Source of the DNA: a virus
Lineage: Duplodnaviria; Heunggongvirae; Uroviricota; Caudoviricetes
Strand: one strand, 5' to 3'
Virus record (IMG/VR): IMGVR_UViG_3300023543_000254
Coordinates: 1-23,244 of that record
DNA: 23,244 nt
Shown: positions 16,112-23,244 of the stretch, one piece after another
How positions within the stretch are numbered: position 1 is the stretch's first letter
Layout of the letters: every line of letters begins with the position of its first letter
The notes under the pieces: model-generated
What the model saw: only the letters and a program-made list of their open reading frames with translations
Told to the model about the DNA's origin: nothing
Database searches by the model: none
Made by a program: the position numbers and the translations under genes

Positions 16112-16345
16112 TTAATGCAGCCAGCTGTCGTCTTCCCACACCTTCTGCATAATCTTCATCACTTGTTTTCTTTCTTCGTCCAGTTGCAGTCCGGTCAGTT
16201 CCACACCGTTAGAGCTACCTTTGCGGATGCGAATTACCATTTTGGGATACAGGGGGCGCAGATTGCGGTAAAGCTCGGATTCAAGGGCGTCCAGGGTAGA
16301 CTGGCTAATCTTCTGCTCTTTATCGATCATTATTTCAATGCGCAT
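16112..16345 (-). CDS. dinI: DinI-like protein
   Basis: ORF track 16112..16417; ATG at 16345 with GAGGTGA RBS gives MRIEIMIDKEQKISQSTLDALESELYRNLRPLYPKMVIRIRKGSSNGVELTGLQLDEERKQVMKIMQKVWEDDSWL, which resembles E. coli DinI (MRIEVTIAKT...ALAGELSRRI...) in length and pattern. Confidence 0.8.
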   Translation of the reverse strand: MRIEIMIDKEQKISQSTLDALESELYRNLRPLYPKMVIRIRKGSSNGVELTGLQLDEERKQVMKIMQKVWEDDSWLH

Positions 16346-16355
16346 AAAGGTCACC

Positions 16356-16544
16356 TCAGCTGATGACATCCATTGAGCGGTTGTATTCGTGGGTTCTGAT
16401 TTTTGCCATGAGTTCATCAGTCAATTCAGAAACCCACTGCAGAGCCAGCCCCTTCTCTTCATCACTACACTCACTAGCCGCTACAAGCTTAAGAAAAAAA
16501 TCAATGCGCTGGAGCTTCAAAGACTCCAAAAAATAGTCCTGCAT
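16356..16544 (-). CDS. Small protein (62 aa) at head of LexA-controlled operon; possible Tum-like antirepressor
   Basis: ATG with strong AGGAGG RBS; 43 nt downstream of a perfect LexA box; function by position only. Confidence 0.55.
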   Translation of the reverse strand: MQDYFLESLKLQRIDFFLKLVAASECSDEEKGLALQWVSELTDELMAKIRTHEYNRSMDVIS

Positions 16545-16586
16545 CTTTCCTCCTATGACACCAAAGCAATACTGTATATATAACCA

Positions 16587-16602
16587 CTGTTTATATTTAC
16601 AG
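16587..16602. promoter_or_regulatory. LexA box (SOS operator) CTGT-N8-ACAG
   Basis: ctgtttatatttacag read directly, within an AT-rich promoter-like region upstream of the small-ORF/DinI-like operon. Confidence 0.6.
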
Positions 16603-19069: not shown

Positions 19070-19899
19070 TACGCAATCTCCAGTTCGAGCTGTGAAGGCT
19101 GCAAACCATTCGACAGCCAATCAGAAACTGAAGGTGGGCGAACAGCTTCAATTGCACCTTTTAAAATTGCGCAACGGTTTTTCAGAATGACAGCTTTCAG
19201 CTCCTTTTCCGTCAGATTGCGCGAATACTCAGCCTCCTGAATAGCCCGCGTCAGCTCAGGATATTTGCTATTAAATTTGGGGACATTGCAGGCAAGATTT
19301 GTACTGTCGGCAGTCGCCAGTGGGTAATTTCCCAACACACGACCGTCAAGCATGCGCAAACCATGAACAGCTGTTTTGAAATTGTGTCGGCAATAAATTG
19401 CTTCAAAAGCGTCCTGCATACGACGATGCCAGTGCGCAGTTCTGATAGCCGCATATTCACCAGACGATCCAAAGCAGACACGAGGCCATTCACGACATAG
19501 CTCGATAAGCCGATCGATTGACTCGTGCAGATGCCAGACGGGAGTTGCCTTCCCGTAGAACATTTTCGGAACTTCGTTTATCAGGGCATCATTGTCACGT
19601 TCACCTCCGTCCACAACATCAGGAATGACAAAAAAAGCGACCTTAGGATGGTGGTAATAGTTCAGGAGCCATTTATAAAAATCACTCCAGTTAATTTTTA
19701 GCCCACGCACCCATGCAGAAAATGCGCCGTTATCAATGCCGACGACCTGAGCGTGCTGAATGGACGCCGCAATCTGATCTGGTCGTACATAGGAGACGAA
19801 AGCGCCAGCTCCGCTCACCGCAATACGATGAACGTCGCCAGCACTTCCCCAGACAGGCGTCCCATGGAAATGATGAATTCCGTGGTGCATTTCTTTCAC
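19069..19899 (-). CDS. Hypothetical protein (276 aa), translationally coupled between dam and A
   Basis: Start overlaps dam stop, stop overlaps A start (TAATG); no confident family call; weak resemblance of VGIDNGAF to the TGT/DpdA substrate motif (TDSGGFQ). Confidence 0.7.
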
Positions 19900-20750
19900 A
19901 CTTGCACCCCGAAAATAACAGTAGAGTCACGTCCCCTACTAAAATCGGCACTAAACCAATTAGCAGATTTAGTGGCAATCATCTCTGTTGCAAATTTTCC
20001 CTCCCCCGCTGCAACGCCGATGCTGCGTTTCGCCCTGATGTAGTGGTGAGTGAAATTACGATAAAGGGACCGGGTCAAAGACGTGTTACTGTTAGAAACA
20101 ATGACCGGATGTCCTTCTGATGACCGATGTTCAAGAATGGATGCCAGGTGATACTGATCATCTTCAGTGAAACCATCAGTGTGATAGCCGGAAAACGTAC
20201 CGTCATAAGGCGGATCGCAATACACCACATCCCCCACCTTCAACATCGCCAGCGTTTCATCAAAGCTGGCGCAGATAAACGTTGCCCGCTGGGCTTTCTC
20301 TGCAAATGCGCGAATTTCTTTTTCAGGGAAATACGGATTTTTATAATTACCGTAGGTAATGTTGAAATGCCCGCTCTTGTTATAGCGACATAAACCACGG
20401 TAACCGTGACGATTGAGATACAGGAAATATACCGCTTTCATGAAATCAGTAATTTCAGTGGAGTAATTAAACTCCTGCCTTATGTTGTAATAAGCCACCT
20501 CCCTGTTTGCTTCCTCAAATAAAGCTCTGGCACGAGATATAAACGCCTCACAATCAGCAGCAACCTTTTTATAGAGGTTGATTAAATCAGGATTAATATC
20601 CGCAACAAGATAGCTGGGGTAATCCGTCTCCATCATCACTGCACAGGAACCCGCGAAAGGTTCAACCAGTCGCGGGCCAGCAGGAAGATGCTTTTTCAGT
20701 TCGGACATTATGGCGGTTTTATTTCCTGCCCATTTCAGGATGGTGCTCAT
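19896..20750 (-). CDS. dam: Dam-type DNA N6-adenine methyltransferase
   Basis: ORF track 19896..20810; ATG at 20750 with GGAGGTG RBS; motifs KWAGNK, FAGSCAV (FxGxG) and catalytic DPPY read directly. Confidence 0.85.
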
Positions 20751-20974
20751 ACAGCACCTCCGTTGTAATGTTTGCCTTTCAGCTCTGCGATTTCCTGACA
20801 GGTAATGCAAAGCTGCACACCCGGAATGGCACGGCGGCGTGCTGGCGGAATTGGCGCTTCACACTCAACGCAAAGCACGCGGGACACGCCCGGCGTTTTG
20901 GCACGGGCAGCACGGATATGGCGTTGGCGTTCTTCTTCAACGCGCTGCTGTACGAGATCCATTGCATCAGCCAT
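20747..20974 (-). CDS. TraR/DksA-family C4 zinc-finger protein
   Basis: 75-aa ORF with CVEC...N17...CITC four-cysteine pattern, as in P2 ORF82-type proteins; ATGA overlaps on both sides. Confidence 0.75.
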   Translation of the reverse strand: MADAMDLVQQRVEEERQRHIRAARAKTPGVSRVLCVECEAPIPPARRRAIPGVQLCITCQEIAELKGKHYNGGAV

Positions 20975-21787: not shown

Positions 21788-22297
21788 TCACAGCAAACCG
21801 AATGAAGCACCGAGGCCAGTCACGGTATCAACTGCACTCGCCATCGCAGGATTAGCCTGTAAACGGGCCTGCAATGAAACAGCGGCCAGCGCCATCAGTC
21901 GTGTTACAGAGTTAATGCTGCTGATAGCATCACGACGACCTGCACTGGTTTTTACATCGCCAGATACCGCACCTGCAGCAACACGCCCGATCTCTGCGGT
22001 TGCACTCATGACATAATGCGGCAGTTTCTCTTTTGCCACCTCATTAATCGGTACACATGGCAGGCAGTGAATCTGTGCCAGAAAGCCATCTACCAGCGTT
22101 GAATCTTCAGTCAGATCGGTAAGCAACCAGATTTCTGGTGCGGTTAATAAATGAGGTTGAGCTGGGTTCAGCTTGTTCCGCAGAATCTGTACATTCATGC
22201 CTGCACGTTCTGCCAGTCGCACCAGGTTGTGGCGCAGTGCGAATGCACGACAGGCTTCGTCAAAATGTGGATGTTTGGAAACTTGATAATCAAACAT
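21788..22297 (-). CDS. cII: CII-like lysogeny establishment regulator (186 CII family)
   Basis: 169-aa ORF, same length as 186 CII as recalled; second gene after the lytic promoter; HTH-like segment [13 protein letters not shown]. Confidence 0.7.
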
Positions 22298-22329
22298 AGT
22301 CAGCCCCTTCCCTTTATTTCAAAATCGAA

Positions 22330-22551
22330 TCAATTGATTACGACATTGGAATCGGCAAGCGCATCCACTGTCATGGCTGCAATGTTGATCATTACCTTTT
22401 CACGTTTTTTATCCTTGCGAAGACGATGCCGCTTAAGGCGTCCATCTGCGAGCATACTGTTGATAGTGTCTACAGATAACCCTGTGAGTTCACTGTACTT
22501 TTCAACCGAAATGGATGGGACAGCTAATGTGATTGAAATGTGCTGAGTCAT
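22330..22551 (-). CDS. apl: Apl/Cox-like small DNA-binding protein (excisionase/lytic regulator)
   Basis: 73-aa ORF, first gene downstream of the pR-like promoter, divergent from cI; HTH-like VEKYSELTGLSVDTINSMLADGRL; AGGAG RBS. Confidence 0.65.
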   Translation of the reverse strand: MTQHISITLAVPSISVEKYSELTGLSVDTINSMLADGRLKRHRLRKDKKREKVMINIAAMTVDALADSNVVIN

Positions 22552-22602
22552 AAGGCAACATCTCCTGTTTAAGTGTGTTTAACATTGACGAGTAGTTGTA
22601 AG

Positions 22603-22676
22603 TCACATTTTGAAATCAATGCGACTATAAGATCACAAATTGAAATCGTCAACCATAAAGTTCACAAGGTGAAATC
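22603..22676. repeat. Three direct repeats TCACA-N3-TGAAATC at 29-30 bp spacing; candidate repressor operators
   Basis: tcacattttgaaatc (22603..22617), tcacaaattgaaatc (22633..22647), tcacaaggtgaaatc (22662..22676); they bracket the pR-like -10/-35 and run into the cI RBS. Confidence 0.45.
22624..22652 (-). promoter_or_regulatory. Sigma70-type lytic promoter (pR-like) driving apl-cII-...-A
   Basis: Minus strand: -35 TTGACG (22652..22647), 17-bp spacer, -10 TATAGT (22629..22624); read directly. Confidence 0.5.
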
Positions 22677-22677
22677 G

Positions 22678-23244
22678 ATGGATTTTAGTCAAGGTGGAAA
22701 GAAAGCTATCGAAAGGATGGTTGAAGCCTATGGGTTCACTACAAGACAGGCGTTATGTGAACAACTAGGCATATCAAAAAGCAGTCTTGCTACACGCTAC
22801 ATGAGAGATTCATTCCCTTCTGATTGGGTTATTCAGTGCGCGCTCGAAACAGGAGTAAACATAAAGTGGCTGGTAACAGGCTTACCTCCTAAACATGAAT
22901 ATTTAACGTCTGACATCATCAATATTCAAAAAATAAAATTGATTGATGGAGTGCTATTGGATGCAGGAACACTAATGTTTGACAAAGTGTTCATTCCTGA
23001 TGGTTTATCATCACCATCTGTGATATCAAACGGGAATAACTCTTATTTTATTGAGAGGGATTTCACAGATGTAGTTGATGGTGATTGGTTAATCTCCATT
23101 GATGGAAAGCATTCTATAAAACAAGTTATTAGAATTCCTGATAATAAAGTTAAGATTAACTATGGGAATATCATTGTTGATATGAACATTAATGACCTTG
23201 TATTCATCGGCAAAGTTATAGCAGAATTCAAGATAAGAGGCTAA
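22678..23244 (+). CDS. cI: CI immunity repressor (186 CI-like)
   Basis: ORF track 22573..23244; ATG at 22678 with AAGGTGA RBS gives a protein of about 188 aa, HTH-like TTRQALCEQLGISKSSLATRYM, divergent from apl; stop is the last codon of the window. Confidence 0.7.
   Translation: MDFSQGGKKAIERMVEAYGFTTRQALCEQLGISKSSLATRYMRDSFPSDWVIQCALETGVNIKWLVTGLPPKHEYLTSDIINIQKIKLIDGVLLDAGTLMFDKVFIPDGLSSPSVISNGNNSYFIERDFTDVVDGDWLISIDGKHSIKQVIRIPDNKVKINYGNIIVDMNINDLVFIGKVIAEFKIRG

What the first reader, a model, noticed from the sequence alone, without database searches (positions are those of the whole stretch)
22552..22677. Compact 126-bp immunity switch with a strong leftward promoter and three direct 15-mer repeats
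Between divergent apl and cI there is a near-consensus minus-strand promoter (TTGACG, 17 bp, TATAGT) on the cI-proximal side, bracketed by three copies of TCACA-N3-TGAAATC spaced about three helical turns apart. The third copy overlaps the cI ribosome-binding site. The lytic promoter therefore lies within the cI leader, as in the face-to-face pR/pL arrangement of 186. The repeat pattern is direct rather than the inverted-repeat operators I would expect, so operator architecture may differ here.
Basis: seen in the sequence. Interest (0 to 1): 0.4.

Follow-up and report, generated by a model that had tools for sequence, protein, structure and literature searches.

The report
Three repressor operators on a prophage lytic promoter
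This is the lysis/lysogeny control region of a phage-186-like E. coli prophage, where three copies of a 15-base site very probably bind the CI repressor to shut off the lytic promoter; it is an ordinary switch, except that the sites lie 30 bases apart and not 20 as in phage 186.

Summary
TCACA-N3-TGAAATC occurs exactly three times in the 23 kb window, at 22603, 22633 and 22662 (0.13 expected). The copies sit around a 10/12 minus-strand promoter, TTGACG-17-TATAGT.

The flanking genes are a 186-type CI (PF07022 + PF16452), a Cox-like protein and a 186-type CII. This is a heteroimmune 186-family switch, found in 17 of 5426 complete E. coli genomes.

The same three sites, at the same positions and spacing (30/29-30 bp), recur in six more switches from Rahnella, Yersinia, Kluyvera, Citrobacter and metagenomes. 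Site cores are 89% identical there, against about 60% for other intergenic bases. Clades with a different CI recognition helix keep a three-site layout, mostly with neighbours about 30 bp apart, but use a different motif. The motif follows CI, not the Cox-like protein.

Best reading: O1, O2 and O3 are CI operators covering the +1, spacer and upstream regions of pR. pL lies about 50 bp away, face-to-face.

The "direct, not inverted" contrast is overstated. Each site is an asymmetric two-half site with a weak dyad, 186 has such a site at pB, and one sister clade flips the middle site.

The real differences from 186 are the three-turn spacing and the absence of clear distal sites. All binding is inferred, not shown.

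The parts
22678..23244 (+). cI, 186-type immunity repressor (188 aa)
   Evidence: PF07022 E=1e-28 and PF16452 E=1.7e-26. 30% identical to 186 CI over 176 aa. PDB 2FJR E=4e-24. The N-terminus MDFSQGG aligns with homologues.
22662..22676 (+). O3, predicted CI operator (TCACAAGGTGAAATC), upstream of the pR -35 and overlapping the cI Shine-Dalgarno sequence; contains the TTCAC-N3-GTGAA dyad
   Evidence: Exact motif match. Conserved at the same position in 5 of 6 related switches; its left half has decayed in L005 and L064.
22666..22671 (+). Likely cI ribosome-binding site (AAGGTG, 6 nt before the ATG)
   Evidence: Read from the sequence. GGTGA is kept in relatives.
22647..22652 (-). pR -35 hexamer, TTGACG
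   Evidence: Promoter scan, 10/12 match. pR hexamers are 95% pairwise identical among four related switches.
22633..22647 (+). O2, predicted CI operator (TCACAAATTGAAATC), filling the pR spacer
   Evidence: Exact motif match. Conserved in 5 of 6 related switches; its right half has decayed in L004.
22624..22629 (-). pR -10 hexamer, TATAGT; predicted start near 22617
   Evidence: Promoter scan. The start site is inferred from the hexamer position.
22603..22617 (+). O1, predicted CI operator (TCACATTTTGAAATC), over pR +1 to about +15
   Evidence: Exact motif match. Present in all six related switches.
22567..22583 (+). Two GTTTAA(G/C) direct repeats 10 bp apart between the two start sites; candidate Cox-like protein boxes (low confidence)
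   Evidence: Read from the sequence. In P2-like phages the Apl/Cox sites are 10-11 bp direct repeats between or over the face-to-face promoters (PMC7498355).
22533..22561 (+). Predicted lysogenic promoter pL (TTGAAA-17-CAACAT), start near 22568; about 50 bp of convergent overlap with pR
   Evidence: It is one of only two + strand candidates with at least 7/12 in 22480-22680, and the only one upstream of the operators. It aligns base for base with the annotated 186 pL (TTGCGA-17-CATGAT). TGATTGAAAT and GCAACAT are kept across almost all CI clades compared, including codon third positions of the Cox-like gene; Brenneria L006 departs slightly.
22330..22551 (-). Cox-like excisionase/repressor gene (73 aa), first gene of the lytic operon
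   Evidence: phrog_575 E=3.6e-26. No Pfam hit. No BLAST similarity to 186 Apl.
21788..22297 (-). cII (169 aa), 186-type lysogeny-establishment activator
   Evidence: PF06892 E=8.7e-42.

Best explanation
The 126 bp gap is the lysis/lysogeny switch of a prophage related to, but heteroimmune with, coliphage 186.

The three 15-mers are the primary operators of its CI repressor. O1 is at 22603-22617, O2 at 22633-22647 and O3 at 22662-22676. Each is an asymmetric two-half site, TCAC(A) plus TGAAATC, with half-centres about one helical turn apart. That fits one CI dimer whose two helix-turn-helix units read unlike half-sites.

CI dimers, held together by the 186-type C-terminal oligomerisation domain, would bind the three sites cooperatively at roughly three-turn spacing. 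They would cover the upstream region, the spacer and the start site of the strong lytic promoter pR, and so exclude RNA polymerase.

pR fires leftward into the Cox-like gene, cII and the early genes. cI is read rightward from the weak promoter pL (22533-22561), about 50 bp away and facing pR. Repressing pR should therefore also relieve transcriptional interference on pL.

Shown here: the sequence anatomy, the protein families, and the conservation and co-variation across relatives. Inferred: CI binding, start sites, cooperativity, the oligomer and the interference.
For: 1. The motif is non-random: three exact copies against 0.13 expected.
2. It is placed on a 10/12 promoter, where 186 has its three CI sites over pR. 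PMC7498355 states that in P2-like phages the immunity-repressor operators lie over the lytic promoter.
3. Seven independent switches share the layout: the window, L003 Rahnella, L004 Yersinia ruckeri, L005 Kluyvera, L040 Citrobacter, L042 and L046. Site centres are about -68, -38 and -9 from the cI ATG, with spacing 30/29-30.
4. Among four of these, site cores are 89% and pR hexamers 95% pairwise identical. Other intergenic bases are 59-60% identical, and synonymous third positions of cI only 44-53%.
5. These switches keep the CI N-terminal domain (76-83% identity) while the C-terminal domain is only 31-50% identical.
6. Clades with a different recognition region keep a three-site layout but carry a different repeated motif:
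   - RDSFP goes with TCACAnnnTGAAATC.
   - RDIFP goes with T(T/C)GCTTTTGGAATC.
   - RDTFP goes with CTCACnTTTCGAGAT or TACCCAAATGAGAT.
7. The Cox-like protein stays similar across clades with different motifs. L003 and L044 are each 67% identical to the window's Cox-like protein and near-identical to each other by eye, yet they carry different repeats.
8. CI belongs to the 186 CI family in both domains.
Against: - No binding, footprint or transcript data exist for this phage. Everything rests on sequence and comparison.
- The intergenic regions compared are homologous, so some conservation is inherited. O3 also overlaps the ribosome-binding site and O2 the promoter spacer, which gives other reasons for conservation.
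- L004 has lost the right half of O2, and L005/L064 the left half of O3. Not every site is indispensable.
- A spacing of 29-30 bp does not fit the 186 wheel model of adjacent dimers two turns apart. It is not a multiple of 20 bp, and this CI's inter-domain linker is 2 residues shorter than in 186, not longer.
- No distal sites of the FL/FR/pB type were found, although in 186 such sites are needed for normal pL control.
Confidence: 0.8

Rival explanations
1. The three repeats are true direct-repeat operators read head-to-tail, as with the P2 C repressor. The asymmetry and common orientation would then be mechanistically required, a binding mode different from 186 CI.
For: All three sites have the same orientation in all seven switches with this motif. 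The same holds in the Brenneria clade and the TACCCAAATGAGAT clade. The asymmetric positions (CA on the left, AATC on the right) are conserved (information per position). P2 C shows that P2-like immunity repressors can read non-palindromic direct repeats (PMC2995052).
Against: The protein is 186-type, not P2 C-type. In the CTCACnTTTCGAGAT clade (L010, L044, L025) the middle site is inverted. In the L008 and L011 groups the outer site is inverted. Orientation is therefore not fixed in the family. 186 CI already accepts an asymmetric site at pB. Shared orientation within a clade may simply be inherited.
Confidence: 0.1
2. The repeats are binding sites for the Cox-like excisionase/repressor, not for CI.
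For: Recombination directionality factors of this group bind direct repeats (PMC7498355).
Against: Apl/Cox sites are about 6 bp units at 10-11 bp spacing, and they lie between the start sites or over pL. These are 15 bp units 30 bp apart, and they extend upstream of the pR -35. The motif changes with the CI recognition region while the Cox-like protein stays similar (L003 vs L044).
Confidence: 0.04
3. The similarity reflects other constraints (ribosome-binding site, promoter spacer, initial transcribed sequence) or an RNA element in the cI or cox leader. No protein operator is involved.
For: O3 overlaps the Shine-Dalgarno sequence, O2 the pR spacer and O1 the pR start region.
Against: Three different constraints would not produce the same 12 specified bases. 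Neither leader folds better than shuffled sequence (z = -0.68 and -0.40). No Rfam family matches. The motif co-varies with the CI helix-turn-helix region.
Confidence: 0.03

Closest known systems
Coliphage 186 CI / pR-pL switch (Eganvirus ev186, NC_001317)
   Same: Two-domain CI of the same Pfam families. The gene order is the same: cI on one side, a Cox/Apl-type gene then cII and fil on the other, with int beyond cI in the lysogenic direction (here separated from cI by two cargo genes). The intergenic gap is nearly the same (126 vs 129 bp). There are three CI sites over a strong lytic promoter, with the middle one in the spacer. A weak pL faces pR, with its -35 inside the first lytic gene. A LexA box precedes a DinI/Tum-like module after the replication gene.
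   Different: CI is only 30% identical, and the operator sequence is unrelated to the 186 pR sites. Neighbouring sites are 29-30 bp apart, against about 20 bp in 186 (three operators in 56 bp; PMC3675496). The promoter lies 10 bp further from the cI ATG. No FL/FR/pB-like distal site reaches 9 bits. The first lytic gene is Cox-like, with no similarity to Apl.
186 CI sites at pB (two A-type sites 32 bp apart)
   Same: Centre-to-centre spacing is about three turns. The second site, ATTCACGAATTGAGAAT, is asymmetric with a TTCAC left half, like the sites here (PMC3675496 section 16).
   Different: pB has two sites, not three. In 186 this spacing is reported to distort the DNA and is regarded as disfavoured (PMC3675496). 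Here it is the conserved arrangement at the main operator.
P2 / W-phi C repressors binding non-palindromic direct repeats
   Same: A face-to-face Pe/Pc-type switch in a P2-like phage. The operators are directly repeated, and their sequence and spacing vary between heteroimmune relatives (PMC1904268, PMC2995052).
   Different: The repressor family differs: a small single-domain C protein against a two-domain 186-type CI. P2 has two half-site repeats bound by one dimer, not three full sites. P2 has no cII gene.
Lambda OR (three adjacent operators)
   Same: Three neighbouring repressor sites bound cooperatively control the lytic promoter.
   Different: In lambda the promoters are back-to-back and CI and Cro share the operators, as PMC7498355 notes. 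From general knowledge, lambda's operators are 17 bp pseudo-palindromes about 23-24 bp apart. The protein family is unrelated.

Membership tests
186-type CI immunity switch | Repressor with the 186 CI N-terminal helix-turn-helix domain (PF07022) | tested here: met
   E=1e-28, residues 10-68.
186-type CI immunity switch | Repressor with the 186 CI C-terminal oligomerisation domain (PF16452; structures 2FJR/2FKD) | tested here: met
   PF16452 E=1.7e-26. 2FJR E=4e-24 and 2FKD E=4e-8.
186-type CI immunity switch | Gene order: cI and int on one side, divergent Apl/Cox-type gene followed by cII on the other | tested here: met
   In the full prophage, int follows cI after two cargo genes.
186-type CI immunity switch | Strong lytic promoter facing a weak lysogenic promoter 40-60 bp away | tested here: inconclusive
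   pR is a 10/12 match. pL is predicted only from positional homology with 186 pL and from conservation. No transcript mapping is available.
186-type CI immunity switch | Three CI operators over pR | tested here: met
   Three conserved sites cover the upstream, spacer and +1 regions. They are predicted, not footprinted.
186-type CI immunity switch | Adjacent pR operators two helical turns (about 20 bp) apart | tested here: not met
   Spacing is 30 and 29 bp, against three operators in 56 bp in 186 (PMC3675496).
186-type CI immunity switch | Distal CI sites (FL, FR about 300 bp away; pB) used for looping and pL control | tested here: not met
   No matrix hit of 9 bits or more outside the triplet in the 23 kb window or the 9 kb locus L001. 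The rebuilt matrix found nothing above 7.2 bits there, and 6.4 bits in the 17 kb L048 that holds the ogr promoter. Weak hits at 22314-22330 (2.8 bits) and 22925-22941 (5.0 bits) are at chance level.
186-type CI immunity switch | CI assembles into a wheel of seven dimers that wraps operator DNA | not testable with these tools
   Only domain homology is available. The C-terminal domain matches the 186 CI C-terminal-domain chain 2FKD at E=4e-8.
P2 C-type immunity switch | Small single-domain C repressor | tested here: not met
   The repressor is 188 aa with two 186-type domains.
P2 C-type immunity switch | Operator made of two direct half-site repeats; no cII gene | tested here: not met
   There are three 15 bp sites 30 bp apart, and cII is present.

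The most novel reading that the evidence does not exclude
In this clade, and possibly in most enterobacterial relatives of 186 CI, the repressor oligomer engages three asymmetric operators three helical turns apart and needs no distal flanking sites. Its DNA-wrapping geometry or oligomer size would then differ from the two-turn, seven-dimer wheel model of 186. That would give natural support to the three-turn alternative raised to explain the roughly 180 bp of DNA seen on 186 CI wheels (PMC3675496, section 16).
Probability: 0.3. Interest if true: 0.45.

Novelty: new member of a known kind. Interest (0 to 1): 0.3.

Why it matters
It defines the likely operator code (TCAC-N4-TGAAATC) and promoter layout of a previously uncharacterised immunity type of 186-like prophages in E. 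coli and related genera. This helps in predicting superinfection immunity and in annotating such prophages.

The comparative set also shows that roughly 30 bp spacing is the commonest arrangement among 186 CI relatives, though not universal, while 186 itself uses 20 bp. This bears on how the 186 CI wheel contacts DNA. It also offers natural spacing and orientation variants for testing that model. The switch itself is of a well-understood kind.

Tried and rejected
- Megablast of the switch against 50,697 phage records found nothing, so no characterised phage carries this immunity region.
- A position-weight-matrix search for FL/FR/pB-like distal operators found only chance-level hits. It covered the window, L001, and L048, which holds the ogr promoter.
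- An RNA explanation was rejected: no Rfam family and no unusual folding of either leader.
- Cox-like protein binding was rejected on spacing, position and co-variation.
- A loose two-site pattern scan of viral contigs returned mostly chance hits. Only L064, L097 and L139 carried the arrangement.
- Searches for the original description of the 186 A/B-type sites failed. Pinkett 2006 is not held, and the papers that were readable do not give half-site sequences. The 186 sites were read from the annotated record instead.
- A second + strand promoter-like match, ATCACA-18-TAAAGT at 22632-22661, was set aside. It lies inside the operators and would leave a leader of only about 10 nt.

Full report
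**Observation**

The region 22552-22677 is the 126 bp gap between a minus-strand 73-aa gene (start codon at 22551) and a plus-strand 188-aa gene (ATG at 22678). TCACANNNTGAAATC matches exactly three times in the 23,244 bp window: at 22603-22617, 22633-22647 and 22662-22676, all on the + strand. No further match appears even with one mismatch. Shuffles give 0.13 on average, and none of 100 reaches three. Start-to-start spacing is 30 and 29 bp.

The promoter scan finds TTGACG (22652-22647), 17 bp, TATAGT (22629-22624) on the minus strand, a 10/12 match. The third copy contains AAGGTG six bases before the cI ATG. One refinement: one copy lies upstream of the -35 (O3), one fills the spacer (O2), and one covers the start region (O1).

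**What surrounds it**

- The plus-strand gene has both domains of the phage 186 CI repressor: PF07022 E=1e-28 and PF16452 E=1.7e-26. It is 30% identical to 186 CI and matches the 186 CI crystal structure sequence 2FJR at E=4e-24.
- The gene after the 73-aa ORF is a 186-type CII, PF06892 E=9e-42.
- The 73-aa protein matches phrog_575, "Cox-like excisionase and repressor" (E=4e-26). It has no detectable similarity to 186 Apl.
- The 945 bp switch is 99.8% identical or better in 17 of 5426 complete E. coli genomes and absent from 50,697 phage records. The best phage-record CI is 51% identical or less.
- In a full prophage copy, cI is followed by an ATPase gene, a DUF4276 gene and then int.

**Comparison with 186**

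The well-annotated 186 record shows:
- cI starting at 23011;
- three CI sites within 23011-23067;
- pR at 23026-23054;
- seven Apl sites at 23056-23123;
- pL with its -10 at 23131-36 and its -35 at 23154-59, inside apl;
- single 17 bp sites FL and FR about 300 bp away on either side;
- two CI sites at pB.

PMC3675496 states that the three pR operators are two helical turns apart and span 56 bp, and that the pB sites are 32 bp apart.

In the window, the only + strand promoter-like sequence upstream of the operators is TTGAAA-17-CAACAT (22533-22561). It aligns base for base with the 186 pL, TTGCGA-17-CATGAT. Its two hexamer regions are kept across almost all CI clades examined, including codon third positions of the Cox-like gene; Brenneria L006 departs slightly. 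The predicted starts are near 22568 for pL and 22617 for pR, about 50 bp apart. That is within the 40-60 bp face-to-face range described for P2-like phages (PMC7498355).

**Comparative evidence that the repeats are CI operators**

A protein search, a genome scan and contig look-ups gave 44 related loci. Six of them carry the same three sites at the same positions: L003 Rahnella, L004 Yersinia ruckeri, L005 Kluyvera, L040 Citrobacter amalonaticus, and the metagenomic L042 and L046. Site centres are about -68, -38 and -9 from the cI ATG. Spacing is 30/29-30 bp, with all sites in the same orientation.

Among the window, L003, L004 and L005, pairwise identity is:
- operator core positions, 89%;
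- pR hexamers, 95%;
- other intergenic positions, 59-60%;
- synonymous third positions in the cI N-terminal domain, 44-53%.

These switches share the CI N-terminal domain (76-83% identity), while the C-terminal domain is only 31-50% identical.

Other clades keep three sites around a TTGACx-17-TAxxxT promoter at about -26 to -54, but carry a different repeated motif that goes with changes in the recognition region:
- ...MRDIFP... goes with T(T/C)GCTTTTGGAATC. In Brenneria the spacing is 30/28. In the Escherichia/Enterobacter group my window centres give about 35/31, with the outer site inverted.
- ...LRDTFP... goes with CTCACnTTTCGAGAT. The spacing is about 24/29-30, with the middle site inverted.
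- ...MRDTFP... goes with TACCCAAATGAGAT, at 30/29.

The Cox-like protein does not follow the motif. The L003 and L044 Cox-like proteins are each 67% identical to the window's protein and near-identical to each other by eye, yet they sit next to different repeats. This argues against Cox-like protein binding and for CI.

**Direct versus inverted**

Each site is genuinely asymmetric: TCACA on the left and TGAAATC on the right, both of high information content. Each also carries a weak dyad, TCA-N5-TGA, and O3 is TTCAC-N3-GTGAA.

The FL, FR and first pB sites of 186 are ATTCAC-N5-GTGAAT palindromes. Its second pB site, ATTCACGAATTGAGAAT, is asymmetric with the same TTCAC left half. In the L010/L044/L025 clade the middle operator is inverted relative to the outer two, and in the L008 and L011 groups the outer one is inverted.

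The simplest reading is one dimer per site reading two unlike half-sites, with orientation free to vary. A P2 C-like head-to-tail mode remains a minority rival.

**What really differs from 186**

- Neighbour spacing is 29-30 bp instead of about 20 bp. Both are close to whole multiples of 10.0 bp. However, 30 is not a multiple of 20, so the arrangement cannot be produced by skipping a dimer on the 186 wheel as modelled.
- The inter-domain linker here is two residues shorter than in 186, not longer.
- No distal operator is detectable. No matrix hit of 9 bits or more occurs outside the triplet in the window or L001, where 2.1 are expected by chance. The hits near plus or minus 300 bp score only 2.8 and 5.0 bits. 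The ogr promoter of the same prophage has no site.
- Not every site is retained. L004 has lost half of O2, and L005/L064 half of O3.

**Rivals rejected**

RNA-level function is not supported: no Rfam family, and leader folding z-scores of -0.68 and -0.40. Chance is excluded.

**Verdict**

This is an ordinary heteroimmune member of the 186-type switch family. The three repeats are very probably its CI operators on pR.

The modest point of interest is the conserved three-turn operator spacing without flanking sites. It is relevant to the open question of how much DNA a 186-type CI oligomer contacts (PMC3675496, section 16). No binding or transcription was measured; all function is inferred.

Noticed in passing
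window 16112-16602 (minus strand): A perfect LexA-box-like CTGTTTATATTTACAG (16587-16602) lies just upstream of a 62-aa ORF (16544-16356) and an overlapping DinI-like ORF (16417-16112). The DinI-like ORF hits PF06183 at E=1e-22 and is 40% identical to the C-terminal half of 186 Tum. The position after the replication gene matches p95/tum of 186. The 62-aa ORF has no similarity to the N-terminal half of Tum. This is probably the SOS-inducible antirepressor module for this CI.
   Followed up: partly
window 22631-22634; methylase gene 19896-20810 (minus strand): A GATC (Dam site) sits between the pR -10 and O2. It is kept at that position in most CI clades that otherwise have different operators. 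The prophage encodes its own DNA adenine methylase. Methylation-sensitive control of pR or of CI binding is possible.
   Followed up: no
L001 4947-6680 (just beyond the window end); also L040-L047: A gene pair lies between cI and int: an AAA_15/AAA_21 ATPase (377 aa) and a DUF4276 protein. It is conserved next to cI in the closest relatives. It looks like accessory or defence cargo in the lysogenic operon.
   Followed up: no
L002 (phage 186), 51-113 bp upstream of the cI ATG: In 186 itself, TT(A/T)GCCAA(A/C) recurs three times exactly 31 bp apart across the pR-pL interval. The rightmost copy overlaps the outer annotated CI site. It may relate to the poorly defined weak CI contacts over pL.
   Followed up: no
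L048 10495-10584 (ogr promoter of the same prophage, outside the window): There is no operator of this CI type upstream of the ogr/B-like late activator. There is a TTTGCAAAATGGAAT that resembles the operator motif of a different CI clade (TTGCTTTTGGAATC). This hints at a mosaic origin of the late region, or at loss of CI control of the late activator.
   Followed up: partly
L003 2667-2683: The Rahnella relative has an 11-13 bit match to the operator matrix, GTCACAATTTGATAACG, 287 bp from O2 on the Cox/cII side. That is roughly where 186 has FR. The window has no equivalent.
   Followed up: partly
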